Shown: positions 37,719 to 59,063 of the stretch, in pieces
Layout of the letters: each line of letters begins with the position of its first letter
How positions within the stretch are numbered: the stretch's first letter is position 1
Source: an uncultured bacterium
GTDB lineage: Bacteria > Patescibacteriota > Minisyncoccia > UBA6257 > 2-01-FULL-56-20
Length of the DNA stretch: 64,000 bases
Assembly: GCA_963844965.1 (NCBI GenBank)
Contig: CAWJQC010000007.1
Coordinates: 256,001-320,000, forward strand
Direction of reading: 5' to 3'
Notes under the pieces: model-generated
What the model was told of the DNA's origin: nothing
What the model saw: only the letters and a program-made list of their open reading frames with translations
The model's database searches: none
Program-made: the position numbers and the translations under genes

Positions 37719-39037
37719 ATGGCAAACTCTGCGAATCACAACGGAGAAAATTATAAAAAAAAGTTTTTATTTGTGTCTTTGGAAAGTTTGAGCGGGGACC
37801 TGGCGTGGAACGTTTTGAAAGAAGGAAACCAGGTCAAAATTTATATAGAGAGAAAAGAGGATGTTGACGTCTACAATGGTTTTCTGGAAAAAGTTGACGA
37901 CTGGAAGAAATTCGTTGACTGGGCGGACGTGGTCGTTTTTGACGATGTTGAGTTCGGCGGGTTCGCCGACAAGCTGAGGCAAAAAGGTAAGCTGGTCATC
38001 GGCGGCTCGGAATACACCGACCGTCTTGAGATTGATAGGGAGTTCGGGCAGACGGAACTCAAAAAATACGGAGTGAGCACCCTGCCGAGCTGGCAATTTT
38101 CCGATTACGACGAGGCGATAAAATTCATACGCCAGAATCGCGACAGGTACGTTTTCAAACCGAGCGGAAATACGCCGAGCGACGGGAAAGGTTTGCTTTT
38201 TCTCGGGCAGGACGAGGACGGCCACGACATGATAGAACTTCTGGAGGGGAACAAGGACGTCTGGAAAAAGAAAGCGCCAGTGTTCCTTCTGCAGAAATTC
38301 ATTTCTGGAGTTGAAGTCGCGGTCGGCGCGTTCTTCAACGGCTCGGATTTTATCTATCCGATAAATATCAATTTTGAACACAAGCGGGTTTTTCCCGGGA
38401 ACATCGGTCCCTTTGCCGGCGAGATGGGAACTTTAATGTTCTGGGATTCGCCGAACGTGCTTTTCCACGAGACGCTTGAAAAATTATTGCCGGCTCTAAA
38501 GGAATCAAAGTACGTGGGGTATGCGGATATCAATTGCATCGTGAACGGCCGCGGCATTTATCCTTTGGAATGGACGTGCCGTTTCGGTACCCGACGATCC
38601 AGATACAGTCGGAGGGGATCTTAATGCCGGCGAGCGAGTGGTTGTGGCGCCTCACGAAGGGCGAGAATTTTGAACTTAAAACGAAGCGAGGTTTTCAGGT
38701 GGGAATGAGAATTCTCGTGCCCACGTATCTCACACGCGACAACGATCCGGAAGTTGAGGTCTACAGGGACCTCGCCGTGGCTTTCAAAAACCCGGAAAAT
38801 CGCGAAGGCATTCATATTGAGGACATAAAGAACGACAAAGGAGTGTGGCGTATCGCCGGAACGAGCGGCTGCGTGCTTGTAGTGACCGGAACCGGGACAA
38901 CCGTGGAAGAAGCGAGAAGGGTTATGTACAACAGAGCGAAGAATATAATGATACCCGGTATGTTTTACAGGACAGATATCGGTTTAAGCTGGGGCTCGGA
39001 CAGCGATAAACTTCAAACCTGGAGGTATTTGGATTGA
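37719..39037 (+). CDS. PurD-like ATP-grasp ligase (phosphoribosylamine-glycine ligase-like), split by a frameshift near 38590
   Basis: ORFs 37719..38624 and 38534..39037 together give PLEWTCRFG|YPTIQ, matching the PurD LEFNxRFGDPETQ region; one missing t in a tt run; the N-terminus lacks the canonical GGREHA, so the assignment is tentative. Confidence 0.45.
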
Positions 39038-39113
39038 TAAAAGCTTGATAGTTGATAATCTGTGGATATCTGACGGCCTCGCTTGATGATTTGTCTTGTA
39101 AAATAAGGATTCT

Positions 39114-39146
39114 TTCGCCGCTTCGGCGGCGATTTTTTGTTTTTGA
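39114..39146 (+). terminator. Rho-independent terminator
   Basis: cgccgcttcggcggcg hairpin followed by attttttgttttt. Confidence 0.6.
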
Positions 39147-39155
39147 CACGCTTCG

Positions 39156-39206
39156 GCGGTGGTGTATCGTTAAATGAAAGTGGTGAATTGTGGATAAAGC
39201 TGGGGA
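39156..39206 (+). promoter_or_regulatory. Candidate MraZ operator (GTGG direct repeats at ~10-bp spacing) and mraZ promoter
   Basis: GTGGTG at 39159 and 39180, GTGGA at 39190, TGGGG at 39201; the last three are spaced 10-11 bp apart, as in known MraZ boxes. Confidence 0.45.
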
Positions 39207-39244
39207 TAAATGCCACTTTCTGTGCAGAACTTTCCTTCAAACCA

Positions 39245-39676: not shown

Positions 39677-39782
39677 ATTTCTAATTCCTAATTATTCTAA
39701 TTGACCTAAGGAATGACCAATGAATAAATTTTTGAAAATTGGGAGTTTTTTAGAAATTAGAAATTAGATCAATTAGAAATTC
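39676..39782. repeat. CTAATT-type repeat-array hairpin element
   Basis: tttctaattcctaattattctaattgacc ... tttttagaaattagaaattagatcaattagaaattc; 3-4 direct CTAATT units and 3-4 inverted AATTAG units, ending at the rsmH ATG. Confidence 0.65.
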
Positions 39783-40691: not shown

Positions 40692-40773
40692 TCGCGAATA
40701 ACGCGAATGATAGCAAATAACGCGAATAAAATTCGCATTATTCAATAAAAATTAGCATTATTCGCGAATACTC
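40685..40773. repeat. GCGAAT-type repeat-array hairpin element, copy C
   Basis: ggagtaatcgcgaataacgcgaat...attcgcattattc...attagcattattcgcgaatactc; overlaps the rsmH stop and ends 2 nt before the ftsL ATG. Confidence 0.7.
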
Positions 40774-40775
40774 TA

Positions 40776-41111
40776 ATGACCTTTATCCAACCAAACAAAA
40801 ACAGCGGCATTTTAAATAAAATTTTGGCTGTCCTTGTGATCTGCTCGGTTTTTAGTGGCGCGGCGCTAGTTGTGTTGTATAATAGGATAGTCAATTTTGA
40901 CCACGGCCTTGATAAGGCGAAAGCCGAGCTGGCTAGCCTGCAATCGCAGAACGCCGACGCTAAAGATAAAATCTTTGAATTGCTTGATACCGACAAGGAT
41001 TCGGCGGCATTGAAGGATTACGGTCTGGTTGAAGATAAAAATCCGCAATATTTAGAAATTTCCTCCAAAGACGAGAATTCACAACAATGGTCATACGCTT
41101 CTGGACGTTGA
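40776..41111 (+). CDS. ftsL: FtsL-like cell-division protein (single TM plus coiled coil)
   Basis: 111 aa, one TM segment, coiled-coil region, position between rsmH and ftsI. Confidence 0.55.
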   Translation: MTFIQPNKNSGILNKILAVLVICSVFSGAALVVLYNRIVNFDHGLDKAKAELASLQSQNADAKDKIFELLDTDKDSAALKDYGLVEDKNPQYLEISSKDENSQQWSYASGR

Positions 41112-42722
41112 TTTTGGGCTTAACCGCGGCCTATTCTTTGCTTTTATTTCGTCTTTACGATCTGCAAGTAGTTAAGGGCGATTATTATCATGCGCGCTCC
41201 GAATCGCAATATGTCGCCCAGGATGCCGCCTCCTCGAACCGAGGCGTTATTTATTTTACGGACAAAAATAACAGCGAAATTCCGGCAACCCTGAACAAGG
41301 ATTTCCCGATCATATACGCGGTGCCTAAGGATGTTGAAGATCCATCGGAGGCCGCGAACACTCTTGCCGGGATCCTGAATAAGCCGGTAAGCGATCTCGC
41401 CGCGACTCTGTCCAAAACCAATGATTCTTACGAAGTTTTACTAAGGAAGGCGGATGCCGACACGGCAAAAGCCGTGGACGATTTGAAAATTAATGGGATT
41501 TACGTTGATACTGAAGTCAGGCGCTATTATCCGTTTAACGACATGGCGTCGCAGGTTTTGGGCTACGTCGGGCCGAAGAGCGACGGTTCGGGGAATAAGG
41601 GCTACTATGGCGTGGAAGGATTTTATGATTCCGAACTCGCGGGCGGGGACGCCGTTGAGGTTGACGGCGCGAGTGGACCTAAATCCGGCGCCGATATCAC
41701 CCTTACGATTGATCCGAACATACAGAGTGAAGCGGAAAAAATTTTAGAGAATTTACTTTCAACTTATAACGCGAGCGGCGGCAGTTTTGTTGTTGAAGAT
41801 CCGCAAACTGGGAAAATTTTAGCGATGGGCGGCCTTCCCGATTTTGACCCGAACAACTACGGCAGTGCTCCGATGGCCGATTTTCTGAATCCAACGGTGC
41901 AACAGATCTACGAACCAGGTCTCTGTTTTCAAGGTCATTACGATGGCGACTGGTATTGATTCCGGGAAGATTACTCCGGACACGACTTACTTTGACACGG
42001 GCAGCGTTACCCTGAACGGCAGGACGATACAGAATTACGACCTGAAAACTCATGGTCCTTACGGCAAAGCGACGATGACGAACGTGATAGAGCACTCTAT
42101 AAACACCGGCGCGGTTTTCGCGGAGAGGCAAATTGGCAGGGATATTTTTACCGAGTATCTGAACAATTTCGGTTTTGCCGAAAAGACGGGCATAGATTTA
42201 CCGGGGGAACTAAAGGGAGATTTAAGGCAACTGTCTCCACAGGCGCGGGATATTGCTTTCGCGACGGCTTCCTATGGCCAAGGAGTAGCCGTGACGCCCA
42301 TTGAACTCGTGAATGCGTTCGCGGCCGTCGCGAACGGCGGCAATCTGATGAGGCCATACGTGAACGCCGCCCTGGAACCAAAAGTTATAAGGCGCATAAT
42401 AACCGAGAGTACTGCGCAAGCCGTGACCGGAATGATGATTTCCGCGGTGGACAAAGCCGGCATCGCCAGTATCGCGAACTATTCTGTCGCCGGAAAAACG
42501 GGTAGTGCCTACATTCCGGATTTCAAGAATGGCGGCTACACAAATAAACTTATTGACAGCTACGCCGGCTTCGGGCCCACGAGCAACCCGAGGTTCGTTA
42601 TACTCTTTAAGGTGGATGATCTGGACGAATCTCAGCTTGCGGCCACCATCATTGTTCCGGCTTTCCGCGAGATGGCGCAATTTATGTTGAATTACTACAA
42701 CATAGCGCCGGACAGATTATGA
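41087..42722 (+). CDS. ftsI: Peptidoglycan D,D-transpeptidase FtsI (PBP3) with a 1-nt frameshift at about 41922
   Basis: ORFs 41087..41959 and 41943..42722; removing one c from ggtctctgttttcaag restores YEPGSVFKVITMA (SxxK); downstream SAVDKAG (SxN-like) and KTGSA motifs are present. Confidence 0.75.
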
Positions 42723-42732
42723 AATGAAGTGG

Positions 42733-42764
42733 ACATTTTGATATTTAAATTTTACATTTAAATC
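42733..42764 (+). promoter_or_regulatory. AT-rich promoter-like motif ACATTTTGATATTT...TTTACATTTAAAT
   Basis: TTGATA (-35-like) plus a TTTAAAT-type element; the same ACATTTTGATATTT core recurs at 44124 upstream of tRNA-Glu. Confidence 0.35.
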
Positions 42765-42766
42765 AT

Positions 42767-44054
42767 ATGTCGGATACGAGCTTGCAAACATTGCGCTGGC
42801 TTCTGAAAAAATTGGCGCAACTTACGATTTGGCGCTACCAGCCGGGCGTCATCGGTATTACCGGAAGCGTCGGCAAGACGTCCACGAAACTTGCTCTTAG
42901 GGCGGTGCTGGAAAAAGAGCGGCGCATGCGGGCGTCTTCGGGCAACTTGAACAACGACCTTGGTTTGCCGCTCGCCGTTTTGGGCGGCTGGAGCCAGTCG
43001 GACTTGAGGCTGGTGAGCCGCGAACAGCCGCCACACACGGCGCGCGTCAGTAAGGCGTTTTTTTGGCTGAAGGTTGTTTTGGTTTCGGTTTGGCGGCTGG
43101 TTTTCGTGAACAGAAGAAGCTATCCCGAAATCCTGGTCTTGGAGTACGGTGCCGACCGGCCGGGAGATCTGAAACAGCTTCTTGAGATAGCGCGTCCGAA
43201 CATAAGCATTATCACCGCTATCGGCGAGACACCGGTACACGTGGAATTTTTTGCCGGACCGGAAGAGGTCGCGCGGGAAAAAGCGCGGCTGATAGAATGC
43301 TTGCCGGTGGCCGGCTTCGCTGTTCTCAATTATGATGACGAAACGGTTATGGAGTTGAAGGACAGGACGCGCGCGCATATCGCGACATTCGGTTTCGCGA
43401 GAGGAGCCGGAGTGCAGGTCACGCGGTTTGAGAACCGTTCCGAGGGCGGGCGGCCCCTTGGCATCTCTTTCAAACTTGAATATGGAGGAAATTTCGTTCC
43501 GGTGAGGATTGACGGCGTTTTCGGCAAATCGCAGGCCTATGCGGCCGCAGCCGCCGCTTCCATCGGTTTGATTTTCGGCATGAATCTCGTTAAAATTTCC
43601 GAAGCACTCAGGGACTACAAGCCGGCCGATTCGCGCATGCAGCTTCTCCCAGGCGTTAAGTACGCCTACATTATTGATGACGCTTACAACGCGAGCCCGC
43701 TCTCCATGCACGCCGCGCTTGATGTTCTCCGCGGTCTGCCGGCAAAAAGGAAAATAGCGGTTCTCGGCGACATGCTGGATATTCGGCAAGTACGCTATTG
43801 AAGCACATGAGCGGGTGGGGCGTCTCGTCGCCGGATTCGCGGATATTTTGGTGACCGTGGGACCGAGGGCGAAGTTCATAGCCGAAGCCGCGCGCGAGGC
43901 AGGCATGCGCAAGAACAATATTTATTCGTTTGACACGGCTGACGAAGCTACGAAGCCAGTTCAGGATTTTATAAGAAAAGGGGATTTGATTTTGGTGAAA
44001 GGCTCGCACGCGATGGAGCTTGAAAAGGTAGTGGAGGAGATTAAGGCCTTCTAG
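42767..44054 (+). CDS. murF: UDP-N-acetylmuramoyl-tripeptide-D-alanyl-D-alanine ligase MurF with a frameshift at about 43775
   Basis: Mur ligase P-loop GITGSVGKTSTK; the C-terminal part continues in another frame (FGKYAIEAHERVGRL...), ORF 43815..44054 has a GTG start. Confidence 0.75.
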
Positions 44055-44059
44055 GTAGT

Positions 44060-44150
44060 GTAAAGTTTAAAAATCAAAATTTAAAATGACAATGTAAAAT
44101 TTAAAAATTTAACTGCAATTTTACATTTTGATATTTGCATTTTAAATTTT
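44060..44150. repeat. AT-rich TAAAAT/ATTTTA inverted repeat array upstream of tRNA-Glu (probable promoter region)
   Basis: aaatttaaaatgacaatgtaaaatttaaaaattt ... aattttacattttgatatttgcattttaaattt. Confidence 0.4.
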
Positions 44151-44156
44151 TGCGAT

Positions 44157-44228
44157 GGCGCATTCGTCTAGTGGCCAGGACAGGTGGTTCTCATCCACCA
44201 AACAGGGGTTCGATTCCCCTATGCGCTA
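44157..44228 (+). tRNA. tRNA-Glu (anticodon CUC)
   Basis: Hand fold: acceptor GGCGCAT/ATGCGCT (G1-U72 wobble), D stem GTCT/GGAC, anticodon stem GGTGG/CCACC with loop TTCTCAT, T stem AGGGG/CCCCT with TTCGATT loop; the island starts immediately after it. Confidence 0.7.
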
Positions 44229-44359
44229 CATTCAGCTTTCGTTATCGAGGAGACGCGGTTGCGTCCATTTGTGCTACATTTTCCAAAGATGTTGGCAAGT
44301 AAATTAGAAGAGAGTAGGCTATATTGCGGATAGTAAAATAGCTGTTTCGATACAAAAGC

Positions 44360-46500
44360 ATGCTAGAAAAGATAACCTCAATCAAAAATGTGGGTCGGTT
44401 CCGCAACAGTCCTGCTACTGGTGACGTGACTTTCCGTCGCCACACAATGATATTCGCCGAGAACGGGAGGGGTAAAACAACTCTTTGTGCCATCCTACGC
44501 TCGCTGTCCACCAACACACCCGCCTTCATCATCGGGCGCAAGACGTATCGGCGGCAACGGTCAGCCGGAAGTCCAACTACTTCTCAACGGCGACTCCGTA
44601 ACATTTCATGATGGAGTTGGAGTGCTCCGTTCCCGAACGTGGCGATCTTTGATGGGACCTACGTCAGCGAAAATGTGTTTGCGGGTGACGTGGTTGATAC
44701 CGAAAACCGACGTAACCTTTACCGCGTTATTATTGGTGCTCAAGGCGTGGCTCATGCTGGCCGACTCAATGATCTCGATAACCAGATCAGGACTAAAAAT
44801 AATGAAATCAGGGATGTCAGAGCGCGGATGCAACCTCATATGCCGCCAGGTACAACAGTTGAAGATTTCATCGCCTTACCCGAAGATGCGACAATCAGTG
44901 AGAAGATTTTGGCGAAAGAACAGGAACTTCAAGCGGTACAACGTGCTGCTCAGTTACAGCAAAAACAGGGTCTAACAGCAGCTGCGGTACCGACCTTTCC
45001 CGCATCATTTGCTGAGACTCTTGGCAAAACTCTTGAGAATCTTGGGGCAGGCGCCGAGAAGCTTGTCGCCGATCACATTTCACAGCATCAAATGCGAACG
45101 CATGGGGAGACTTGGCTGAGGGATGGCCTCCCTTTTGTGGTCGATGAGTCATGTCCATTCTGCGGGCAATCGCTTGTAGGCGTCGATTTGATTCAGGTAT
45201 ACAAAACTTTTTTCAGCAATGAGTACCACGCGCTGCGTAGTGAAGTGATGAAACTAAGTGCGCAGGTTGAGGGTGTGCTCGCGGAGCGTGTATCTGCGGC
45301 AATTGAACAAACGCTTTTACAGAACAGCAACAACGCCGAGTTCTGGCAACAATATTGTGATTTCGTGCCGCCCGTTCTGCCGGGAGCGGAAAGGCTTGGA
45401 GAAATTATCACCGCGCTCCGGCAATCCGCTCAGTCTCTTTTACAAATAAAGTCGGGGGCACCGCTTGACGCAGTGCCACCGGACGAGGGATTCACTAAAT
45501 CACTTGTCGCATTCGAGGCCTTACGCACCTCCCTAGCCAACTATAATGCCGCAGTCGCCGCAGTAAACGTCACAATTGAAGCCAGAAAGCGTGCTACGCA
45601 GGCAACGAATGTGCGCGAAGTTGAAAATGCGGTCGCCAAACTGAAGGGGCAAAAGAATCGCTATACAGTGGGCGTGCAGGAACTTTGCGCGACCGAGACG
45701 CGTCTACAGGGTGAAAAGAAAATTCTCGAAAACGAAAAAGCGCTGGTGCGAGGTCAACTGGACACTCATACGGGACAGGTAATCACCCAATATGGCCAAA
45801 TCATCAACCGTTTTCTGGAGCGGATAAATGCGGGATTCAGAATCACTGTGCCATCACACAACTACCGTGGAGGAACGCCGAGTACGAGCTACCAGATTCT
45901 TATCAATCAAAATGCGATTGATTCTTGGAGACGCAGCGACGCCGACAGACAGACCGAGCTTCAAGAACACTTTGAGTGCTGGCGACAAAAGCACATTGGC
46001 TCTCGCATTTTTTCTGGCACAACTTGAGCAGGATTCGGATCGTGCTCAAAAAATAGTCGTTTTCGACGATCCTTTCAGCAGTATGGATAGTTTTCGAAGA
46101 AATCATACGATCCATCAGATATCCAAATGCGGGGAAACATGCGTTCAAGTAGTCCTTCTTTCGCACGAACCATCATTTCTAAAATTGCTGTGGATCGTGG
46201 GCACCGGCAGACCGGAAAACGCTCCAGCTGGCACGTGTAGGAGAAGAGAACACCGTCATCATTGAATGGGATATCGAGAAAGCGGTCCAGGCACGTTATC
46301 GGGCCGATATAGAAGCGTTGCAAGGATTTTTTTCATTGGGCAAAGGCGATCAGCGGGAGGTGATTCAGAAGCTACGACTGGTGCTTGAGGCGTATTGCCG
46401 AACACTCTATCCAACGCTCATCGGTGAGGATACATTAGGTGTCATTGTAGAAAATCGGCCACGGCAGCTACACAATTCCCCTCCATCTATCGCGGGATGA
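44360..46500 (+). pseudogene. AAA_13-family (RloC/PrrC-like) ATPase gene broken by at least 4 frameshifts
   Basis: Pieces in four frames: Walker A IFAENGRGKTTLCAIL, NVAIFDGTYVSENVF, zinc-hook-like CPFCGQSL, SFKNTLSAGDKSTLALAFFLAQL, Walker B IVVFDDPFSSMD, H-loop LLSHEPSFL, and a C-terminal helical region. Confidence 0.6.
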
Positions 46501-46996
46501 TCCTCCAATCAATATATTTATTGCCGTCGCTGTATCATGGTGAAAGCCCCGCTGCTGCGACCGATATATCGACGATGCAGAGCTCCAAGGATATGTCGCA
46601 CGCACTCTGAAACTCGTTGGATGTCTTTAGCGCAAACTCCTATTGATAGCATCATACAAAAACTTGCCGGATTATCCGTTCCGAAGCTAGTGAACTTTTA
46701 TTCGGCCTTCAAGCTTATGACCTTATCTCTCACCACAAACTTGCTCTTGATGAGCGAGAGTAATTCTCGTTTCTCGGTGGGATTACCGTCATTTAGTACA
46801 TATGCTGCGTATCATCTCGCGTCGAATTCGGCATCATCCTGCTTTATCGCTCTCACACCTAGGAATGATTTCTGGAATTTGGCGACGCGTTTTGTTTCCT
46901 CGATAAAACGCTGTTTGATATCGGACTCGTTAATATCCAATTTGCCAATTAATCGATAAGCTGTTTAGTGAGCTCATCTTCGCGCATATATTTGTT

Positions 46997-47957
46997 CTAA
47001 CAGAACGTATCTCGCGACCGACAGCAACCGTAGTAGACGTACTTGGTCGTCGTACCGTCTTTAAGCTTCTTGAATTTCTCCTGTGCGCTAATGGTCGACC
47101 CGCAGAGGCCGCAGGTGAATAGTTTCGTAAAGGCGAATTCCTTGACCTCAGCATTTCTGAAAAGACTATCTTGCTTTAGTTGTTCCTGGGTTGCTTCGAA
47201 TATTTCTCTTGTGATGAGTGCCTGATGTTTCCCGGTGTACCAGTTACCGCTCCCTACGGGGTATTCGAATACACCGTAATAAAAGGTGTTTTGGAGCAGC
47301 CGATAAAGATTGCCCAGTGCCAGATGTTTGTTGCCTGAATTTGTTCGGAAATTAACTTCAAATTTGAGCCAATGAAATAGCTTCCTGCCGCTCCAGCCAT
47401 TGGCCACCTTCTCAAACATCTGTTTAACGACCGGGGCGCGTGCGGGGTCGATTATGACGCTACCTTTACGATCGACACGTTTCTCGGTCAGATATCCAGT
47501 AGGAGCCTGCGCGGGCCACAGCCCCATTTCGCAGCGCATCCGCAGTCCTCGCTTCACGTTTACACTCTTATTGTCGTTTTCAAGCTTCGCCTGAGAGCAT
47601 AGGATCATTAGCAAGAACTTTTCGTTCGGTGAGTTGGCAAATCTTTGTCCGTAAGTTCGGATCTCATGAGTAACTTCTGATCCATGAGATCCACGAGGAT
47701 CTGAGGTCGCCCGCGTTCCTACTTAACCGATCCGGTGCCCATGTGAGAATTCCTGTATATCGGCCGCTTCTAATATCCTTCAAAATTTCCAGAAACACCG
47801 ACCGCTCGCCTGAGCTTTTTGCCGAGTGGGATTCCCGCCGGATGTCGACAATTTCCAATGCTTCGCGTTCGGCGATAAGAAGCATCTCCTTAATTTGCGA
47901 ATCAATGGAGAGAATCTGTTTTTCTTCCGACTCAGTGCTCTTTCTCGCATAAAGCAC
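46997..47957 (-). pseudogene. Decayed large serine recombinase (frameshifted, C-terminally truncated)
   Basis: ORF 47664..47957 is the resolvase N-terminus (YARKSTE...SIDSQ); ORF 46997..47614 is the recombinase domain plus zinc ribbon; about 65 percent identical to the intact copy at 57135. Confidence 0.65.
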
Positions 47958-48151
47958 GTATTTGACCTTTACCTCGGGCGGGATTGTTGTAGGGTCCCGC
48001 TCCCTGCGCCCCCGTGGTTTGGGTGGTCATACCACAATGGATGACGCAACCTCGCCAGAGAGTCCAGACCCCCTGAAAGACCCCAAAAGCCCTACCTAAG
48101 GCGAGCGCTAAATCGCTATAAAAATCGTCTAAATTAAGCTAAAATGGTGCT

Positions 48152-50943
48152 ATGGCACTGAGCTGGAACGAATTCGATCACGAGCTACTGGCTTCGCAAA
48201 AGAGTATGAATCGGCGAAACGCCGAGATACAAGATTACGCCGATTTTTCGACAGATTTTTTTAATATCTTTGGCGTCCGGCGTCGTTCGGTTTCTATCTA
48301 TCAAAAAGCGGTCCAAAAGATAAATGGCAACACGGGATTTATTAATCTTTTTTGGCCGAGTGTATTGCTCGTTGAACATAAGTCGAAAGGAGAAAACCTC
48401 GACAGCGCCTTTCTCCAGGCAAGCGATTACATCTTAGGACTCCCCGAGGAGGAAAGGCCCCGCTACGTAATTGTCTCTGATTTTGAGCAATTCGTTTATA
48501 TGATCTCGAAACGGAAAGTGAAAAAACTGAAATTCACGATATCGCGTTATCAAAACTCGCGTCGCATATACGCCTCTTTGGATTTATAGCTGGCTATAAA
48601 GTACGTAAATATAAAGAGGAAGACCCCGTCAATAAAAAGGCGGTGCGTTTGGTCGTGCAGCTATATCAGGCGCTGTCCGATGGAAATTACCCGAAGGAAT
48701 ATCTCGCGCGTCTTATGGTCCGTTTCGTGTTTCTCTTTCTTCGCAGACGATGCGGGTATTTTCCCAAAACGTGATATTTTCCGTGATTATATGCTTTATC
48801 TCACCAAGGAAAATGGTGAGGATCTCGGTGGGCACTACATCAAATTTTCGAGATTTTGAATACCCGGAGGATAAGCGCCAGCAGGCCCTTTCTGACGATC
48901 TAAAAGACTTTCCCGTATGTGAATGGGACTCTTTTTAAGGATCCCTTACCGCTGCCGTTTTTCAATAAGGAAATGCGGAGCGAAATTATCCGCGCAGCGC
49001 AATTCGATTGGGGCGCTGTGTCGCCTGCGATCTTCGGTTCGATGTTCCAATTCGTGATGGATGTTGAGGACAACGATATACGGCACGACTTTGGGGCGCA
49101 TTATACTTCAGAAAAAAATATCTTGAAGGTTGTGGACGGCCTCTTTTTGGACGATATAAAAAATGATCTTGAGGCCGCGGGTCAGAATCGGGCAAAACTG
49201 AATGCTCTGTGGGAAAAGATCGCCGAGATGCGGCTTCTCGACCCCGCCTGTGGTTGTGGGAACTTCCTTGTCGTTGCCTATCGAGAACTCAGGGTTGTCG
49301 AGCTTGAAATCATCACACGCCTGTTTCGAGATGAGTTAAAGCGGCTAGAGCAACCAACGCTTGGTATCAAAACCGATGTCTCAAAAATCTCTAAGCTTAC
49401 TCTCGAGCACATGTTTGGCATAGAGATTCTTTCGTTCCCGGCGGAGATCGCCCGTCTATCGTTGTGGCTCATTGATCATCAGATGAACGTTATGCTTGGA
49501 AGTCTATTCGGGGAATATTTCGCGAAGCTTCCTCTTAAAGAGCAACCCCATATTTTTCACGGAGATGCGCTTGCTGTTGATTGGGCGCGACTTGCGCCAC
49601 AAGGAGATAATTTTTCTTATATCCTTGGCAATCCACCCTTCATCGCGAAGCAAGATAAAGTCCTGATCAAAAAGCTGATATGCATAGAATATTTGGCGAC
49701 TTGAAAGGCGCGGGCGAATTAGATTATGTAACGGCATGGTATGCAAAGGCGGCCGATTTCATTCAAGGGACCGGAATCCATTGCGCCTTTGTTTCAACCA
49801 ACTCGATTACCCAGGGAGAACAAGCTGGAATTTTATGGCCACTATTGCTCCAGAAAGGAGTCCATATCAATTTCGCGCACAGAAACATTTCGTTGGACAA
49901 ATGAAGCCCCTGGGCGAGCTGGTGTGCATTGTGTCATCGTCGGTTTCTCGCTTGAAAAATCGGCTAAGCCGCTTTTATGGGACTACGACGATCCAGCCGG
50001 AAATCCCCATCTTGTAAAAGCAAAAAACATTAATCCATATCTTGTCGATGCTGATGATATTGTCGTTTTACCCCGACGGAAGCCGCTCGCCGATGTCCCG
50101 GAAGCGCAATTCGGGAGCATGCCGAACGACAGCGGATTTTTACTCTTTGATGACGGGGCCAAAAAGGAAGAGTTTTTACTTCAGGAGCCGGGAGCTGAAA
50201 AGTTTATCCGCCCGCTCCTTTCCGCAAAGGAATATCTAAATGGATCTCTGCGATATTGTTTGTGGCTTAAAGAGGCAACACCTCAAGAATTGCGTTCAAT
50301 GCCGTACCTCATGCGTCGCGTTGAAGCCGTACGAACGTATCGCGATCTTTCTTCCCGAGCGGCAACTCGCAAACTTGCCCGAACACCCTACCTTTTTGGA
50401 GAAGATCGACAACCAGAAGGTAATTACGTTCTGATCCCTCGGGTGAGTTCTGAAAGGAGGAGATACATTCCATTTTCGTTTTTTGGGCCGGAGTATATCG
50501 CTGGTGATACCTGTATCATAGTTCCAAATGCCGCTCCTTATCATTTTGGCGTCCTCCAATCCGTAATGCATATGACATGGATGCGTGCAGTGTGTGGACG
50601 CCTCGAATCTCGATATCGCTATTCAAACGAATTAGTTTATAACAATTTTCCGTGGCCGAAGGATGTTTCTAATGAACAACGGGCGTCGATAGAAAAAGCG
50701 GTGCAAAATTTATTGGACGTTCGCAAGGGATGTCGCGGAACACTTGCGGATCTGTACGATCCAAACGTGATGCCGCGAGAGCTTCTCGAAGCCCATTCGG
50801 CACTCGATAAAGCAGTCGATAACGCCTATGGCATGTTCCGTGGCTTCCCCTCGGAAGCTGAGCGATTGAAATTTCTGTTTAAATTGTATGAAGACTACCT
50901 CCGTGCGGAGCCTACCCAATTCGAGCGTAAGGTTAAGAAATGA
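48152..50943 (+). pseudogene. MmeI-family Type IIL restriction-modification enzyme gene (nuclease, gamma-class N6-adenine MTase, TRD) broken by at least 5 frameshifts
   Basis: Family signatures read across frames: N-terminal PD-ExK region LLVEHKSKG; linker motif LFGFIAGYKVRKYKEEDPVNKKA; FPYVNGTLF; HYTSEKNILK; LDPACGCGNFL (motif I); ILGNPPFIAKQ (motif IV); C-terminal TLADLYDPNVMP...LDKAVDNAYG...ERLKFLFKLYE. Confidence 0.65.
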
Positions 50944-50964
50944 CGGCACCAAATTCAAAAAATA

Positions 50965-53830
50965 ATGGAGTACGTCATCCTCGATATCGAAACTACTGGC
51001 CTAGATAAGGAACATTCTTCTATTATCGAGATAGCTGCTATCCTCGTAGAAAAAGGAGGTGTCAAAAATAGTTATAGCTCTTTTGTTCATTATGATGGCG
51101 TTCTCTCGGAAACCGTAAAGCGGCTAACTGGCATCCAAGAAGAAGATACTCAAAAAAGCTCCACTAATAGCTGCTGTCATTTCTGAGTTGAAAAATTTTA
51201 TTCAGAAGCGACCCGTTGTTGCTCATAATGGATATTCCTTCGATTTCTTTTTTCTTGAACGGGAGGGGCTGAAACTGGAAGAAAAATATGACTCTATGGA
51301 ATTTGCCTTTTTTGTCATGCCCACGAACGCTCCTGGCCATTCGATCCCTGCGCTCGCGGAACAATTTAAGTTAGGCGAAGCTCCGCATCGGGCGCTCGGG
51401 GATTGCAAGCTCGAACTCACAATAATCAATCGTCTTCAAAAGGAATATGGAAAGAGAAAGAAATCAAAACGAGAAGTTCTTGCTCATGCCGCAGGAACGA
51501 CAGGATGGTGGTGGTCCAATTTCCTCTCGGGAGAGAAAGCTCCTACTGATCGAATTTCAAGCCTCATTGAGGCTTATGAGCCATACCGCAAAGAATATCG
51601 CGGGGCAGAAATGCTGGGATTTCAAACAGAAGTGATCGATATTGCAGAGGTTGAAAAATATTTTCAACCAGCGGTAAAAGCGGGCGAGAAAAACGGAGAG
51701 GATGATTACTCGGAAGATCGACCCGAACAACGAGAGATGGCGAAAATGGTAGCCACGGCGTTTAACAAGCATAAGCATGCGGTCATAGAAGCCGGTACAG
51801 GCACCGGAAAATCAAAAGCATATCTCGTGCCGTCGCTCCTTTTTGGACTCAAGAACCGCATACCGATGATCATATCGACCCATACCAAAGCACTCCAAGA
51901 TCAGTTATCCCTCAAAGAAATACCGCACATAAAGAATCTCATTCGGCCCGATCTGCGCGTTGCTGTTCTCAAGGGAAAACAAAATTACGTCTGCTTGGCA
52001 AAATTCGAGATTTTTGCCGAAGAAACTGTGAAGGAGCTTTCGCAACGATCCTTGTATGAGTTTGGTGAATCGGAAACTCGGTATTCAACACGCCTCGCTT
52101 ATTTATTGCTCTTCTCGTGGATTCTTGAAGCTGAGTATGGCGATTGGGACGAGCTGCCATACTGGATCAAAGAGCGGATTCCCAAATATATACAAGCCGA
52201 AATCTGCAATATCGATGAGCTTTGCGGCAATGGGACTTGCGACATCTATGACGCAGAAAAATGTTTCCTTGCTAAGGCCAGGCTTCGCGCACGTGATGCC
52301 GATCTTGTGATTGTAAATCACGCGCTTGCTCTTATGGGCATCATTATTGAGGATAAGACTCCCGAAATACCCAGTGAGCCAGGCGTCGATGTGCCTCCGA
52401 GTAAAATGTATAGTCATACGGTCTTTCCTAACGAGTCGAAATTCATCGTATTCGACGAGGCCCAACATCTTGAGGACGACGCAACTTCGGCATGGGAGCA
52501 TGTGCTCTCCCAGAGTTTCCTACAACTAATTCTCCAGCAACTTTATGGTAAGCGAGGCGTCCAGCAGCTTGTAAAATCTATCGCCAGCAAAAAAACTGAT
52601 GAACGACTCACGCGGCTTGCAGCAAATTTTGAGAGTGGCGAAGGCAACATAAAAATCGGCGTCGAGGCGCTTTTTAAAAATATCTTACCGCACCTCGTTT
52701 CCGAAAGTGATACACGGGAAACTTATACTATGCTCGATGAAATTCCCGATACCTCTCCGGAGCGGAAAGCGCTATTCTCTGAGCTACGGAGCTTGCGGCA
52801 ACGATTTCTTGATATTGCAAGAATATTAAGTGAATTTTCGGAAGAAACCGAAGTTCCAAGGATGCGCAAAACCCTTTCCGTCCGCTACAACACTCTTCAA
52901 CGGATCGTGCGCTCATTCGATGCCATTCTAGAAAACGATAACGTATATGTGAGATACCTCCAGCGATTCGGTTCAAGCGTTGAAATTAAAGCTGCTCCAC
53001 TCTCGGTCGGTCCATACCTGAAAGATTATGTCTACGATAATTTTGCTTCGGTAGTTATGACCTCGGCGACACTCACTGTCGGCAAACGGTTCAATTTCTT
53101 CGCGAGCCGCTGTGGGACATTATTAGTCGACAAAGAAAAGATTGGGTACAGACTTTTCCATTCCTCCTTCAACTACGAGAAGCAAGTTAAATTTTTTGTT
53201 CCGAAAGGAATTAACTATAAAGAAGATCGCGAAACCCATCTTGCGAAAAGCACTGAGTTTCTTAAAAAAGCGATTGTCGCCTCCGGCGGAGGCGCGCTCG
53301 TGCTTTGCTCAAGCCACGATCAGGTCGGAGAACTTTACCAAGGGCTCTCAAAGACACTTTCTGAAAACAATATTTGGCTTCTCCGGCAGCAGAAAGGCAT
53401 ATCAGTAAGCTCCGTCATCAGAGATTTTAGAAGGGACGTCGATTCGGTGCTTATTGGCACCGAGACCCTCTGGCAGGGCATCGATGTTCCCGGGGAATCG
53501 CTCCGCAGCCTTTTTATTTATAAGATTCCATATCGAATGCCTGGCCTTCCTCTCATCAAAGCCCGCCGGAAAGAGATTGAAGATAACGAGCGGGATAGCT
53601 TTGCCGAATATTATGAACCGCTTGCCGCTCTAATTCTCAAGCAGGGATTCGGGCGGTTGATCCGCAAATCCACTGACATCGGTATCGCCGTACTTCTCGA
53701 TGAAAACTTTCTTAAAAAGCCGAGCCTTATGAACTCCCTTCCGGAAGGCGTCCACCCTCAAGCTGCCGAGCCGGAAGCTATTTGCGAAGAACTTCATAAA
53801 TTACACTTGTTGCGACTGAAGGAGAGTTAG
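50965..53830 (+). CDS. dinG: DinG-family ATP-dependent helicase with an N-terminal DnaQ-like 3'-5' exonuclease domain; frameshift at about 51150
   Basis: Exo I ILDIETTGL, Exo II VAHNGYSFDFFFL, Exo III HRALGDCK; helicase Walker A AGTGTGKS and DEAH-like VFDEAQHL; the N-terminal 73-aa ORF and the 880-aa ORF join across an A6 run. Confidence 0.75.
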
Positions 53831-55841: not shown

Positions 55842-56095
55842 AAGATGAAGGGACGTCAGGAACCCTCAAAAAATATTGTCAAACTGGCTCCAAACGTGAT
55901 ACCTTTTAGGTAATTGAATATCAGATAGATCGCCTAAACCACGCATTTTGCATGGCATGGCATTACGCAGAATCTCCCTTCCAGATACCAAACGCCACGT
56001 TTGGCGACTTCTGGAAGGGAGTCACTCCGAAAGGGGTGGGGCCGCAAGGCCCAAGCCAGCGTGGCGTTTTGTGTTCTCTATTTTAAAACAAACCC

Positions 56096-57007
56096 ATGGC
56101 CTTATTCTCCATCTCAAACGGCAGCACGAAGAAAATATCATCCGTGAAAATCGGGCTTGAAAAAGACGTCCAAAAACTCTTCGAGAAAAACCTTGAGGAG
56201 ATTTTGAATATCACATTCCTAGCATCAGAGTATTCAACGAGCTTCGGCGGACGAATCGATACGCTGGGTATGGATCATAACGGAGCGCCAGTGATCATTG
56301 AATATAAGCGGTCGCAAAATGATAGCGTCATCAACCAAGGCCTGTCATACCTCCGATGGCTTCTTGATCACAAAGCGGATTTTGAAGCGCTGGCGCACCG
56401 ATTAAAAATTGAGATTGAAATTGATTGGGCTTCTCCGCGCGTTATCTGCGTGGCCGAGAGTTACAATAAATTTGACCTCGATACCGCCGATCTTCTGCCG
56501 ATGAACATAGAACTGTTACGCTACAAGATTTATGAACAAAACATTCTTCTCGTTGAACCAGAAGTGCAACGCAAAATAAAAATATCCACGTCGGAAGTAT
56601 TCGAGAAAACAACGCGGGAGAGGCACGAGTTTAAAGAACAGATCAAACACACCATCGAAGATCATTTGAAATCAGCAAATCCCGCCATCCGCGATCTTTT
56701 TGCCGCCATGAAAGAGAAAGTTCTTGCGCTTGACGAATCAATCAGCGAGGAGCCGAAAGCGCATTACATTGCCTACAAACTGGTGAATAATTTTGTGGAT
56801 GTTGCGGTGCAAAAGGACGCCTTAAAAATTTTCCTCAACATCACGAGCGGCGCGTTAAATGATCCGACATCTCTGGCCCGCGACCTTACTAAGCCGAAAC
56901 CCGTTGGCCACTGGGGTAACGGCGACTACGAACTCAAGCTTGATCAACGGGAAAATCTCAATGCTGTGATGGCGCTCATCAAGCAAAGTTACGAATACAA
57001 CAAGTAA
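56096..57007 (+). CDS. NucS/RecB-like PD-(D/E)XK nuclease-fold protein with a C-terminal DUF5655-like domain
   Basis: GRIDTLGMDHNGAPVIIEYKR...QGLSYLRWL pattern; 303 aa. Confidence 0.45.
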   Translation: MALFSISNGSTKKISSVKIGLEKDVQKLFEKNLEEILNITFLASEYSTSFGGRIDTLGMDHNGAPVIIEYKRSQNDSVINQGLSYLRWLLDHKADFEALAHRLKIEIEIDWASPRVICVAESYNKFDLDTADLLPMNIELLRYKIYEQNILLVEPEVQRKIKISTSEVFEKTTRERHEFKEQIKHTIEDHLKSANPAIRDLFAAMKEKVLALDESISEEPKAHYIAYKLVNNFVDVAVQKDALKIFLNITSGALNDPTSLARDLTKPKPVGHWGNGDYELKLDQRENLNAVMALIKQSYEYNK

Positions 57008-57134: not shown

Positions 57135-59063
57135 ATGGCAAAACGAGGAAGACCGCCGAAAAATCAATTGACGGTCGCGCAACCAAAAACCGAATGTGCT
57201 CCGGACATGAGTAGTCTCAATAAGATGCCGAAGTATTGTTTGTACGCGAGGAAGTCATCGGAGAGCGAAGAACGGCAGGCACTCTCCATCGACTCACAGG
57301 TCAAGGAGATGTATAAGATCGCGGAGCGCGATCATCTCTCGGTCGTTGAAGTACTGACCGAATCACACTCTGCAAAAAGCACCGGATGCCGACCGATCTT
57401 TAACCAGATGGTTATAGGTGTTAAGGATGGCCGCTTTGAGGGCATTCTTACCTGGGCACCGGATCGTCTGAGTCGCAACGCAGGCGACTTGGGCCAGCTG
57501 GTCGATCTTATGGACAACGGCCATCTTGCGGAAATCCGCACGTTCGGGCAGATATTCAAAAATTCGCCCAACGAAAAATTCTTGCTTATGATTCTCTGCT
57601 CACAGGCGAAACTCGAAAATGATAACAAGAGCGAGAACGTGAAGCGAGGTCTCCGTGCTGCCGCCGAGCGAGGATATCGCCCAGGCGTCGCACTTGTGGG
57701 ATACACGAACAGTTATCGCAGGGATCATCCCGGCGAAGTGGTAATTGATAAACTGCGAGCCCCAATCATAAAGCTTATGTTTGAGAAAGCCGCAAATGGA
57801 TGGTCAGCGCGGAAGTTGGTGGTCTGGCTTCGCGGTATCAACTTTACGACGCGCAACGGAACATATCTCTATCTAAGCAGTGTTCATACGCTGTTGCAGA
57901 ACCACTTTTACTACGGCACGTTCGAATACCCTCGGGGCAGCGGCGCATGGCACAAAGGAAATCATAAACCGCTCATTACCAAGGATATGTTCGACCGTGT
58001 TCAAGCGCAGATTGAACGACGGCGCACCTCGCGCCGCTCGGAGCGGAAATCTTTTGGATTCACCCAGCTCATGCATTGCGGCATCTGTGGCTCCGGCGTT
58101 TCCGCCGAAGAAAAATTTAAGAAACTGGTAGACGGTTCACAGGCCCGCTATGTCTACTACGGATGCAATCGTTCCAAGGGGGTGAAGTGTACCAATACTT
58201 ACATCCGTGAGGATTTTCTGGTCCGGCAGTTTGTGAACATCATCGACGAGATATCGCTCGACGAGCTTGGCATACGAAAACTTCTCGGCGAGGAAACTGA
58301 GCGTGTCTTTCGGTTTCACAATGATGTCATGGGCGATCCTAACGCTTCGGAAACTCAAGAGAAAAAAGATATCGACATTAAAACCTACGCTAAATATCTA
58401 CTCGCAAGAGGCAACGCCGAAGAAAAAAGATTACTACTATGCAACATTCAGAACCGACTGATCCTTCGGGATAAAGCCGTATATCTGGAAGAAGTAGGCG
58501 GTCTTACCTGGAAGGACTATATTGGCCATATGAGAAAGTGCGCGAACTGCGGATCAAAAAACGTGAACGAGAGCGGACCGTATGCGAACTGGAAATTCGG
58601 CGATACGCCAATCGACGACACGCCGCGGATCGTGTATTTCGCTTGTCTCGACTGTGAGCAATCGTGGAAGCAGGTCAACGAGAATATCTTGCGATTAATG
58701 CGCGAGTATGTGGTGGTGCCAGAGGGAAACGGGGCGTGGATTAAAACACCTGGCGGCTCGGAGTTTTTCGCGACGCCGTCTTTCGCCGCGCGGTTCAGAG
58801 ACACGGTGGAGATAGACGGCAAAAAAGTGCCACCGAAAAAAATTCTCGGGGAAATGCTGTACTGGCCAGACAGGAACGCTTACGAGACGACGATCGAATA
58901 TGACGACGGAAGCGAACGGACATTTGATATCCCAAGTCTTCGTGGCAGGAACAATACAGAAGAAGGCATGAAGCCGATCAGCAATAAGGATGGTCTTATG
59001 GAGTACAAAGAAGGTAAGATGCAAACTTATTTCGGTCGCGGTCTCCAATATGACGGCCGATAA
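57135..59063 (+). CDS. Large serine recombinase (phage-type serine integrase)
   Basis: Resolvase catalytic domain (LYARKSSESEERQALSIDSQ), recombinase domain, Cys-rich zinc ribbon (CGICG...CNRSKGVKC) and a coiled-coil C-terminal region; 642 aa. Confidence 0.85.
   Translation: MAKRGRPPKNQLTVAQPKTECAPDMSSLNKMPKYCLYARKSSESEERQALSIDSQVKEMYKIAERDHLSVVEVLTESHSAKSTGCRPIFNQMVIGVKDGRFEGILTWAPDRLSRNAGDLGQLVDLMDNGHLAEIRTFGQIFKNSPNEKFLLMILCSQAKLENDNKSENVKRGLRAAAERGYRPGVALVGYTNSYRRDHPGEVVIDKLRAPIIKLMFEKAANGWSARKLVVWLRGINFTTRNGTYLYLSSVHTLLQNHFYYGTFEYPRGSGAWHKGNHKPLITKDMFDRVQAQIERRRTSRRSERKSFGFTQLMHCGICGSGVSAEEKFKKLVDGSQARYVYYGCNRSKGVKCTNTYIREDFLVRQFVNIIDEISLDELGIRKLLGEETERVFRFHNDVMGDPNASETQEKKDIDIKTYAKYLLARGNAEEKRLLLCNIQNRLILRDKAVYLEEVGGLTWKDYIGHMRKCANCGSKNVNESGPYANWKFGDTPIDDTPRIVYFACLDCEQSWKQVNENILRLMREYVVVPEGNGAWIKTPGGSEFFATPSFAARFRDTVEIDGKKVPPKKILGEMLYWPDRNAYETTIEYDDGSERTFDIPSLRGRNNTEEGMKPISNKDGLMEYKEGKMQTYFGRGLQYDGR

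What the first reader, a model, noticed from the sequence alone, without database searches (positions are those of the whole stretch)
48152..50943. MmeI-family Type IIL restriction-modification gene shattered into at least 6 reading-frame segments
All domains of a single-polypeptide MmeI-like enzyme are present in order: N-terminal PD-ExK nuclease region, helical linker with the LFGFIAGYKV motif, gamma-class N6-adenine MTase (LDPACGCGNFL ... ILGNPPF) and C-terminal TRD (TLADLYDPNVMP...ERLKFLFKLYE). The frame changes at least five times between roughly 48530 and 49700, and no premature in-frame nonsense codons separate the homologous pieces. Either a functional RM gene is hidden behind assembly indels, or a recently inactivated RM is decaying by small indels.
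Basis: partly seen in the sequence, partly recalled or inferred. Interest (0 to 1): 0.55.

Follow-up and report, generated by a model that had tools for sequence, protein, structure and literature searches.

The report
Frameshift-riddled MmeI-type restriction-modification gene
A complete MmeI-type restriction-modification gene in a candidate-phyla-radiation bacterium is broken by nine single-base insertions or deletions, and these are more likely local sequencing or assembly errors than real gene decay, so the finding is ordinary.

Summary
Window 48152-50943 (+) encodes a full-length MmeI-family Type IIL enzyme (930 codons) split into 10 frame segments by nine single-nucleotide indels: five deletions and four insertions. 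There are no in-frame stops. After conceptual repair it aligns end to end with MmeI (PDB 5HR4) and is 79% identical to intact 917-930 aa genes in Paceibacterota metagenomes.

The frameshifts are not specific to this gene. The same +/-1 lesions hit the adjacent RloC-like tRNase (8), a serine recombinase (about 4, plus 2 stops) and core genes nearby: DinG, ftsI at its SxxK motif, and a PurD-like gene. About 47 kb of the window shows none confirmed.

All well-resolved indels are 1 nt. Insertions and deletions are roughly balanced, most lie outside homopolymers, and the 23 runs of 5 nt or more in the gene are untouched. The gene's nonsynonymous branch is the shortest among its relatives, and its specificity-determining residue pairs are coherent.

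I judge a low-quality stretch of a metagenome-assembled contig most likely (about 0.65). Real decay of a defence island is the main rival (about 0.25). One substitution matters either way: the catalytic Asp of the PD-ExK nuclease (MmeI D70) reads Asn. Only the raw reads can settle the question.

The parts
48152..50943 (+). MmeI-family Type IIL restriction-modification gene. It is 930 codons after conceptual repair and is split into 10 frame segments as deposited.
   Evidence: Pfam hits on the fragments and on the repaired protein. The frameshift-aware alignment to P0121. An end-to-end match to MmeI 5HR4.
48171..48172 (+). Indel 1: one base missing (codon 8, GAA/GAG in homologs).
   Evidence: Single-column gap unique to the window in the nucleotide alignment with P0121 and P0122 genes. 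DP event.
48222..48222 (+). Indel 2: one extra base. With indel 1 it leaves 16 garbled codons but no stop.
48492..48493 (+). Indel 3: one base missing (DFEQ|IRLYDL).
48735..48735 (+). Indel 4: one extra base (C between T's, not in a homopolymer).
48834..48835 (+). Indel 5: one base missing.
48863..48864 (+). Indel 6: one base missing.
48915..48915 (+). Indel 7: one extra base (G between CCC and TAT, not in a homopolymer).
49656..49657 (+). Indel 8: one base missing, just after the NPPF motif.
49883..49883 (+). Indel 9: one extra base (AGA|A|ACA).
48344..48346 (+). AAT (Asn) codon at the position of the catalytic Asp of the PD-ExK motif (MmeI D70). The E-x-K part (GAA 48374-48376, AAG 48380-48382) is intact.
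   Evidence: Alignment to MmeI 5HR4. The column is invariant Asp in the other 116 sequences of the alignment. D70, E80 and K82 are completely conserved and their mutation abolishes cleavage (PMC2731913).
49237..49641 (+). N6-adenine methyltransferase core: motif I LDPACGCGNF through motif IV NPPF (AAT CCA CCC TTC, 49630-49641).
   Evidence: Translations. Pfam MmeI_Mtase profile positions 1-257 of 259 on the repaired protein.
50605..50619 (+). TRD specificity residues E-S-R-Y-R, equivalent to MmeI E806, R808 and R810. Together with R (E751 equivalent) and D, T (N773, A774 equivalents) they predict recognition of NNG(R/G)AC.
   Evidence: Alignment to MmeI 567-913. Recognition code from PMC2731914. 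The motif itself is an inference.
44360..46628 (+). Neighbour: RloC-like AAA_13 'wobble nucleotide-excising tRNase'. It is full length but carries 8 +/-1 frameshifts and no stops.
   Evidence: Pfam AAA_13 split over ORFs. Homologs of 760 aa. DP alignment to P0393.
46700..48030 (-). Neighbour: large serine recombinase. It has three -1 frameshifts (47699, 47667, about 46951), a probable fourth near 47990, and two in-frame stops (TAG 46997-46999, TGA 46812-46814).
   Evidence: Pfam. DP alignments to P0241 and P0243. Sequence. N-terminus compared with the L026 recombinase.
51145..51157 (+). One extra base in an A run splits the DnaQ-exonuclease/DinG helicase gene (50965-53830).
   Evidence: Relatives carry single ORFs of 956-969 aa. 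DP alignment. NCBIfam DinG profile starts at position 80.
41921..41921 (+). One extra base splits the ftsI-type PBP gene (41087-42722) just before the SxxK active-site motif.
   Evidence: Pfam Transpeptidase domain split over two ORFs. DP alignment to the 548-aa PBP of L006.
38591..38591 (+). One base missing in the PurD-like ATP-grasp gene (37719-39037), at the RFG|YP motif.
   Evidence: GARS_A and GARS_C lie in different frames. Sequence. PDB PurD matches up to about residue 290.

Best explanation
The locus holds a genuine, full-length member of the MmeI (Type IIL) family. This is one polypeptide with an N-terminal PD-ExK nuclease, a helical spacer, a gamma-class N6-adenine methyltransferase, a target-recognition domain and a C-terminal domain.

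Enzymes of this family (established knowledge, PMC2731913 and PMC4833311):
- bind an asymmetric 6-8 bp site;
- methylate one adenine on one strand for self-protection;
- cut about 20/18 nt downstream.

From published residue-to-base rules I infer a site of the form NNG(R/G)AC.

The nine frame changes in the deposited sequence are most likely residual +/-1 consensus errors, not mutations in the organism. They sit in a poorly supported stretch of a metagenome-assembled contig, roughly 38-51 kb and worst at 44.5-50 kb. A plausible cause is low read depth over a strain-variable island in a noisy long-read assembly.

What is shown:
- the gene, its domains and the exact indels;
- the regional distribution of indels;
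- the lesion spectrum.

What is inferred:
- that the indels are technical;
- the sequencing platform;
- the recognition motif.

Separately, the catalytic Asp (D70 equivalent) reads Asn. If that base call is correct, the enzyme would methylate but not cut.
For: (1) All nine MmeI indels are exactly 1 nt. The repaired gene is 930 codons, the same length as P0121, with no other length change except natural variation at the C-terminus.

(2) The same kind of lesion occurs in unrelated neighbours at the same density, about 0.3% per nt:
- RloC-like gene: 8 frameshifts, 4 insertions and 4 deletions, no stops, full length.
- Recombinase: three -1 frameshifts.

(3) Core genes beside the island are also hit:
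- DinG.
- ftsI, immediately before its SxxK motif.
- A PurD-like gene inside a conserved motif.

Genes in about 47 kb of the rest of the window show no confirmed frameshift and give full-length Pfam coverage, with one unverified candidate near 22.07 kb. They include a second recombinase, an IS transposase and two methyltransferases.

(4) Context: most indels are not in homopolymers. None of the 23 runs of 5 nt or more in the gene (up to A7 and T7) is shifted. This fits neither replication slippage nor homopolymer-type errors, but it does fit random low-depth consensus noise.

(5) Insertions and deletions are roughly balanced (10 and 13 among the 23 mapped events). MmeI and RloC together have 17 frameshifts against 0 nonsense codons.

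(6) There is no sign of relaxed constraint:
- The window's dN branch (about 0.06) is the shortest in its clade.
- It departs from invariant columns at only 2 of 94, within the range of intact homologs.
- The covarying specificity pairs R/D and E/R are intact.
Against: - No reads, depth or platform information is available. If the contig came from short reads only, random +/-1 indel errors at this density would be very unlikely.
- The lesions are concentrated in dispensable defence and mobile genes, as expected for a decaying island.
- The recombinase has two in-frame stop codons, which indel noise does not explain.
- The MmeI nuclease has lost its catalytic Asp through a substitution.
- Relatives of this gene are naturally disrupted in other metagenomes (L026, L028).
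- My survey outside the block used ORF integrity and Pfam coverage. It is less sensitive than the homolog-guided alignments used inside the block.
Confidence: 0.65

Rival explanations
1. Real pseudogenisation. A defence and mobile island (RloC-like tRNase, serine recombinase, MmeI-like enzyme) became useless or harmful. It is decaying by small indels, after or together with inactivation of the nuclease (D70N) and of the recombinase (nonsense codons).
For: - At least 21 of about 25 lesions fall in 6.6 kb of dispensable genes.
- The recombinase has two in-frame stops.
- Catalytic Asp to Asn lies in a column invariant in the other 116 sequences of the alignment.
- Natural disruptions of close relatives occur in L026 (cut after codon ~394, next to a recombinase of the same family) and in L028 (72-codon deletion and a break).
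- Intact mobile genes elsewhere in the window show that the sequence is not uniformly bad.
Against: - All resolved frameshifts are +/-1. There is no larger deletion and no deletion bias, and gene lengths are preserved.
- Most events lie outside homopolymers, while long runs are untouched.
- MmeI and RloC have 17 frameshifts and no nonsense codon.
- There is no excess nonsynonymous change or loss of invariant residues.
- Frameshifts also hit ftsI, PurD-like and DinG next to the island.

From general knowledge of bacterial pseudogenes (not tested here), base substitutions, nonsense codons and multi-base deletions should outnumber or accompany single-base indels.
Confidence: 0.25
2. Mixed case. 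The recombinase is truly dead and the MmeI nuclease is truly inactive (D70N), so the enzyme acts as an orphan methyltransferase. The +/-1 indels are a technical overlay on that background.
For: - Stops occur only in the recombinase (2 in about 440 codons against 0 in about 1690 codons of MmeI plus RloC), while indel density is equal in all three genes.
- The methyltransferase and TRD motifs are intact, and the specificity pairs are coherent.
- L028 shows a relative that has lost part of the nuclease domain.
Against: - It needs two independent processes.
- The D-to-N and the stops could themselves be substitution errors in a low-quality stretch.
- Two deviations in 94 invariant columns is within the range of intact homologs.
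Confidence: 0.3
3. Regulated expression: phase variation or programmed ribosomal or transcriptional frameshifting.
For: Restriction-modification genes are often phase-variable through repeat tracts (general knowledge).
Against: - There are nine shifts in both directions and none sits at a simple-sequence repeat or slippery site.
- The same lesions occur in unrelated neighbouring genes.
Confidence: 0.01

Closest known systems
MmeI (Methylophilus methylotrophus), Type IIL restriction-modification enzyme, PDB 5HR4
   Same: - The five-domain order matches, and there is one continuous alignment over residues 1-927 against MmeI 1-913 (E = 3.5e-268).
- The E80/K82 equivalents, methyltransferase motifs I and IV (NPPF), and the RLESRYRYS recognition strand are all present.
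- The E806, R808 and R810 equivalents are identical to MmeI.
   Different: - The D70 equivalent is Asn.
- The position-3 determinants are R/D rather than E/N, which predicts G instead of C at site position 3.
- The reading frame is interrupted nine times in the deposited sequence.
Intact Paceibacterota/Patescibacteria MmeI homologs: P0121 (930 aa), P0122 (917 aa, GCA_035541435.1), P0123 and P0124
   Same: - 73-79% amino-acid identity over the full length, with identical length to P0121.
- They are solitary genes inserted among housekeeping genes. P0122 sits between rplL and mraZ, P0125 beside rplJ-rplL, and the window's copy lies about 5.4 kb downstream of the end of a split ftsI in a similar rplJL-mraZ-ftsI neighbourhood.
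   Different: - They are uninterrupted ORFs with the catalytic Asp present.
- P0121 has K..D at the position-6 determinants (predicting G) where the window has E..R (predicting C).
- Synonymous sites are saturated, so these are not recent copies.
RloC/PrrC-type anticodon nucleases linked to restriction-modification systems
   Same: The adjacent gene is a full-length homolog of 760-aa proteins that a source names 'wobble nucleotide-excising tRNase' (AAA_13). It lies in the same small island as a restriction-modification enzyme.
   Different: - A recombinase gene separates it from the RM gene.
- The partner is a Type IIL enzyme rather than a Type I enzyme.
- No functional link was tested.

Membership tests
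MmeI family (Type IIL RM enzymes) | A single polypeptide with N-terminal nuclease, helical spacer, N6-adenine methyltransferase, TRD and C-terminal domain, in that order. | tested here: met
   On the conceptually repaired protein, Pfam gives MmeI_N 12-177, MmeI_hel 185-262, MmeI_Mtase 340-609, MmeI_TRD 634-837 and MmeI_C 840-916, with near-complete profile coverage.
MmeI family (Type IIL RM enzymes) | [quoted passage not shown] | tested here: met
   One stretch, query 1-927 against MmeI 1-913, E = 3.5e-268.
MmeI family (Type IIL RM enzymes) | Conserved PD-(D/E)xK residues aligned with MmeI D70, E80 and K82. | tested here: not met
   E and K are present, but the D70 position is Asn (AAT, 48344-48346). 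The paper states the Asp is completely conserved and that its mutation abolishes cleavage. The base call itself is unverified.
MmeI family (Type IIL RM enzymes) | Gamma-class N6-adenine methyltransferase motifs: motif I (xxGxGxF) and motif IV (NPPF/Y). | tested here: met
   LDPACGCGNF and GNPPF are present in the homologous frames.
MmeI family (Type IIL RM enzymes) | An uninterrupted reading frame that can give the full-length enzyme. | tested here: not met
   Nine single-nucleotide indels produce 10 frame segments as deposited.
MmeI family (Type IIL RM enzymes) | Cleavage about 20/18 nt from an asymmetric site, with methylation of one strand only. | not testable with these tools
   This needs biochemistry or methylome data. 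The site NNG(R/G)AC is only predicted from published residue rules.
Genuine decaying pseudogene | Lesions confined to dispensable genes, with neighbouring core genes spared. | tested here: not met
   ftsI, PurD-like and DinG next to the island are also frameshifted.
Genuine decaying pseudogene | A mixed lesion spectrum (nonsense codons, multi-base deletions, slippage at homopolymers) and relaxed constraint. | tested here: not met
   In MmeI there are only 1-nt indels, no stops, untouched long homopolymers, the shortest dN branch, and 2 of 94 invariant columns changed. The recombinase next door does have 2 stops.
Consensus (assembly) indel error | +/-1 indels in both directions, in random context, positioned by region rather than by gene function. 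| tested here: met
Consensus (assembly) indel error | Low depth or conflicting reads at the indel sites. | not testable with these tools
   No reads are available. The source record could not be retrieved. Its ORF fragments are singletons from one 331,718-bp contig held by NCBI and ENA.

The most novel reading that the evidence does not exclude
The indels are real. Under this reading a candidate-phyla-radiation bacterium carries a 6-13 kb tract with an unusual burst of non-homopolymer +/-1 mutations, a local indel hypermutation centred on a defence island and spilling into ftsI and DinG. The tract sits beside a serine-recombinase element family that in a relative (L026) sits right after a break in this MmeI subfamily near methyltransferase motif I (L028 has a break at a similar position, with no recombinase in view). 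That would point to a mobile element that targets restriction-modification genes, and to nuclease-dead MmeI enzymes kept as methyltransferases.
Probability: 0.1. Interest if true: 0.55.

Novelty: new member of a known kind. Interest (0 to 1): 0.15.

Why it matters
As biology it matters little: this is one more MmeI-family gene, from a Patescibacteria genome, with a predictable recognition code.

As quality control it is useful. A roughly 13-kb stretch of this contig carries about 25 frame-breaking lesions, including some in essential genes. Gene calls, pseudogene counts and defence-system inventories for this genome would therefore be wrong there.

If the lesions were real, the locus would record how a small-genome symbiont disarms a self-toxic restriction enzyme: first the catalytic Asp, then frame loss. 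The recombinase element seen inside relatives' copies would then deserve study.

Tried and rejected
- **Codon-usage frame plot**, meant to find frameshifts without homologs. The signal was too weak to use, so it was abandoned.
- **dN/dS on the terminal branch.** Synonymous sites are saturated against all relatives, so only dN branch lengths could be compared.
- **Looking for the same population elsewhere.** The GTDB species genomes gave DinG relatives of at most 60% identity. The JGI metagenome scan gave MmeI relatives of at most 80%. The window's own ORF fragments are in the protein collection as singletons, but their contig could not be fetched.
- **Viral contigs.** There was no RloC relative and one recombinase relative with no MmeI or RloC nearby.
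- **NCBIfam** has no MmeI model. PDB gave no hit for the PurD-like C-terminal piece.
- **Repeat-induced misassembly.** The two recombinase genes in the window are only about 70% identical at the DNA level, and the block has no other copy in the window. Rejected.
- **Alternative genetic code.** It cannot explain frame changes. Rejected.
- **Phase variation or programmed frameshifting.** Rejected on the number, direction and context of the shifts.
- **GATC near the indels.** GATC lies within 10 nt of 8 of 23 sites against 2.6 expected. This was seen post hoc and is not significant after allowing for the k-mers scanned, so I kept it only as a hint.
Full report
**Observation**

The + strand between 48152 and 50943 carries seven overlapping or abutting ORFs. 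Their products hit the Pfam domains MmeI_N, MmeI_hel, MmeI_Mtase, MmeI_TRD and MmeI_C in the order found in MmeI.

I stitched the pieces together and searched the protein collection. This returned intact full-length relatives:
- P0121: 930 aa, 79% identity over 100% of the query.
- P0122: 917 aa, from a Candidatus Paceibacterota MAG.
- P0123 and P0124.

I then aligned P0121 to the DNA with a frameshift-aware dynamic programme. I also aligned the window gene at the nucleotide level with the genes of P0121 and P0122. Both agree on exactly nine single-nucleotide indels unique to the window:
- Bases missing after 48171, 48492, 48834, 48863 and 49656.
- Extra bases at 48222, 48735, 48915 and 49883.

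That makes ten frame segments, not six, and the first shift lies only seven codons into the gene. Removing the four extra bases and padding the five gaps gives 2793 nt. This is 930 codons plus stop, with no internal stop, the same length as P0121.

The repaired protein has all five MmeI Pfam domains with near-complete profile coverage. It matches MmeI (PDB 5HR4) in one stretch, residues 1-927 against 1-913, E = 3.5e-268. The family assignment is therefore secure.

**Organism and context**

DinG, the gene just downstream, has its best relatives (49-60% identity) in Saccharibacteria, Paceibacterota, Kaiserbacteria and Parcubacteria MAGs. The window therefore comes from a candidate-phyla-radiation bacterium.

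The window's ORF fragments are present in the protein collection as singletons from one 331,718-bp contig held by NCBI and ENA. The record itself could not be fetched.

The intact homologs sit as solitary genes among housekeeping genes at different places. P0122 lies between rplL and mraZ, P0121 after smpB, and P0125 next to rplJ-rplL.

In the window the gene order is:
1. rplJ, rplL
2. tRNA-Val
3. a PurD-like gene
4. mraZ, mraW
5. an ftsI-type PBP
6. an unknown gene
7. tRNA-Glu (44157-44229)
8. an RloC-like AAA_13 tRNase (44360-46628)
9. a large serine recombinase on the minus strand (48030-46700)
10. the MmeI-like gene
11. DinG, starting 22 nt after the MmeI stop

**The frameshifts are regional, not gene-specific**

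| Gene | Lesions | Reference used |
|---|---|---|
| RloC-like (44360-46628) | 8 +/-1 frameshifts (4 insertions, 4 deletions), no stops; full length | 760-aa homolog P0393 |
| Serine recombinase (48030-46700, minus) | Three -1 frameshifts, a probable fourth near 47990, two in-frame stops (TAG 46997-46999, TGA 46812-46814) | P0241, P0243, L026 recombinase |
| DinG (50965-53830) | One extra base in an A run at about 51150 | Single ORFs of 956-969 aa in relatives |
| ftsI-type PBP (41087-42722) | One extra base at 41921, right before SxxK | Single 548-aa ORF in the P0122 genome |
| PurD-like (37719-39037) | One base missing at 38591, inside an RFG-YP motif; the A and C domains end up in different frames | Pfam domains, PDB PurD |

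The other genes of the window that have Pfam matches are single ORFs with full domain coverage. They include:
- two long PBP or coupling-protein genes;
- pgk;
- an aspartate/ornithine carbamoyltransferase-family gene;
- two DNA methyltransferases;
- an IS transposase;
- a second, intact 642-aa recombinase of the same family.

One further possible frameshift at about 22.07 kb is unverified.

At least 21 of about 25 lesions lie in 6.6 kb (P about 1e-16). The confirmed events outside that block lie within 6 kb of it.

**Real decay or technical error?**

Arguments for a technical origin:
1. Every well-resolved indel is exactly 1 nt, and no gene has lost or gained length.
2. Insertions and deletions are roughly balanced (10 and 13 among the 23 mapped events).
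3. Most events are not in homopolymers. Clear examples are G inserted between CCC and TAT at 48915, C between T's at 48735, and C inserted in GGT|TCT in ftsI. None of the 23 runs of 5 nt or more in the MmeI gene, up to A7 and T7, is shifted. Only the DinG event sits in a long run.
4. MmeI and RloC together carry 17 frameshifts and no nonsense codon.
5. The MmeI sequence shows no relaxed constraint:
   - Its nonsynonymous branch (about 0.06) is shorter than those of P0121 (0.07) and P0122 (0.09).
   - It departs from columns invariant in the other 116 sequences of the alignment at 2 of 94 positions, within the 0-2 seen in intact proteins.
6. Core genes, including ftsI at its active-site motif, are hit on the shoulders of the block.

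From general knowledge of bacterial mutation spectra and pseudogenes (not tested here), real decay should show more substitutions than indels. It should also show several nonsense codons per handful of frameshifts, multi-base deletions, a deletion bias and a preference for long homopolymers. None of these is seen. Random-context +/-1 errors in both directions, with short homopolymers read correctly, are what a thinly covered long-read consensus gives.

Arguments for real decay:
- The block coincides with dispensable defence and mobile genes.
- The recombinase has two in-frame stops.
- The MmeI nuclease has lost its catalytic Asp.
- Close relatives are naturally broken. In L026 an 80%-identical copy stops after codon ~394 and is followed by a recombinase of the same family. 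In L028 a copy has a 72-codon in-frame deletion after the PD-ExK core and a break at codon ~377.
- If the assembly were short-read only, the artefact reading would collapse.

I put a technical origin for the indels at about 0.65, which includes the mixed case. Real decay gets about 0.25, and the rest is undecided.

**Function and specificity (inferred)**

Aligned to MmeI, the E80 and K82 equivalents are present. D70 is Asn (AAT, 48344-48346) in a column that is Asp in all the other sequences of the alignment. Morgan et al. report that D70, E80 and K82 are completely conserved and that their mutation abolishes cleavage (PMC2731913). If the base call is right, the enzyme would be a methyltransferase only.

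The residues that Morgan and Luyten showed to set the recognition sequence map as follows:

| MmeI positions | Window residues | Predicted base |
|---|---|---|
| E751 / N773 | R / D | G at site position 3 |
| A774 / R810 | T / R | purine at position 4 |
| E806 / R808 | E / R | C at position 6 |

With the methylated A at position 5, this predicts NNG(R/G)AC. The closest homolog, P0121, has K..D at the last pair, which predicts G. The clade is therefore diversifying its specificity through the known covarying pairs. This again argues that the window's TRD was under selection until very recently.

**Comparison and novelty**

This is a new member (79% identity to the nearest known protein) of a well-characterised family. 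The shattered state is either a data-quality problem or a routine pseudogene. Neither is surprising.

The only mildly interesting leads are side observations: the recombinase element associated with broken relatives, the nuclease-dead substitution, and the RloC-recombinase-MmeI arrangement.

**Verdict**

Interest is low.

Noticed in passing
L026 8490-11220; L028 1800-2838: In two metagenome contigs, close relatives (about 80% identity) of this MmeI gene are naturally disrupted near methyltransferase motif I. In L026 the gene ends after codon ~394 and a 440-aa large serine recombinase follows about 230 nt later. That recombinase belongs to the same family as the broken one beside the window's gene. 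L028 has a 72-codon in-frame deletion after the PD-ExK core and a break at codon ~377. A recombinase element may target this gene family.
   Followed up: partly
window 33724-33847 and 55931-56052: There are two LOOT RNA (Rfam RF03000) matches, each directly upstream of a gene on the same strand. One precedes an intact N6_N4 methyltransferase-Mrr_cat nuclease fusion (33907-35505). The other precedes a DUF5655 protein with a weak NucS-like match (56096-57007). The function of LOOT is not described in the main text I could search.
   Followed up: partly
window 41087-42722 (41921) and 37719-39037 (38591): The ftsI-type PBP is split by one extra base just before its SxxK motif. A PurD-like ATP-grasp gene is split by one missing base in an RFG-YP motif. 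Both are core genes outside the defence island.
   Followed up: yes
window 44360-46628: A full-length RloC-like 'wobble nucleotide-excising tRNase' (AAA_13) with eight +/-1 frameshifts sits next to tRNA-Glu. It shares a small island with the MmeI-type enzyme. This pairs an anticodon nuclease with a Type IIL system rather than a Type I system.
   Followed up: partly
window 57135-59063: A second large serine recombinase of the same family is present. It is intact (642 aa) and about 70% identical at the DNA level to the broken copy. It lies near an unknown 499-aa gene and an N6_N4 methyltransferase (61252-62406), so this may be another mobile element.
   Followed up: partly
window 23689-25162: An IS-type transposase (rve integrase core, 24377-25162, minus strand) abuts an inositol monophosphatase gene whose Pfam match stops at profile position 214 of 271. 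This suggests truncation by the insertion.
   Followed up: no
window 20469-22491: There is a possible further frameshift near 22070. It would join a 574-aa repeat-rich surface protein to a downstream ORF that carries a coiled coil and a PG_binding_1 domain but no signal peptide. This is unverified.
   Followed up: no
window 38591-51150 (23 indel sites): GATC lies within 10 nt of 8 of the 23 indel sites, against 2.6 expected at random positions in the block. It could hint at methylation-related base-calling errors.
   Followed up: partly
window 48152-48589: The first two MmeI indels (-1 after 48171, +1 at 48222) compensate each other. The first ORF therefore reads through with 16 garbled codons and no stop, and an ORF-based survey would miss such pairs elsewhere.
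   Followed up: yes
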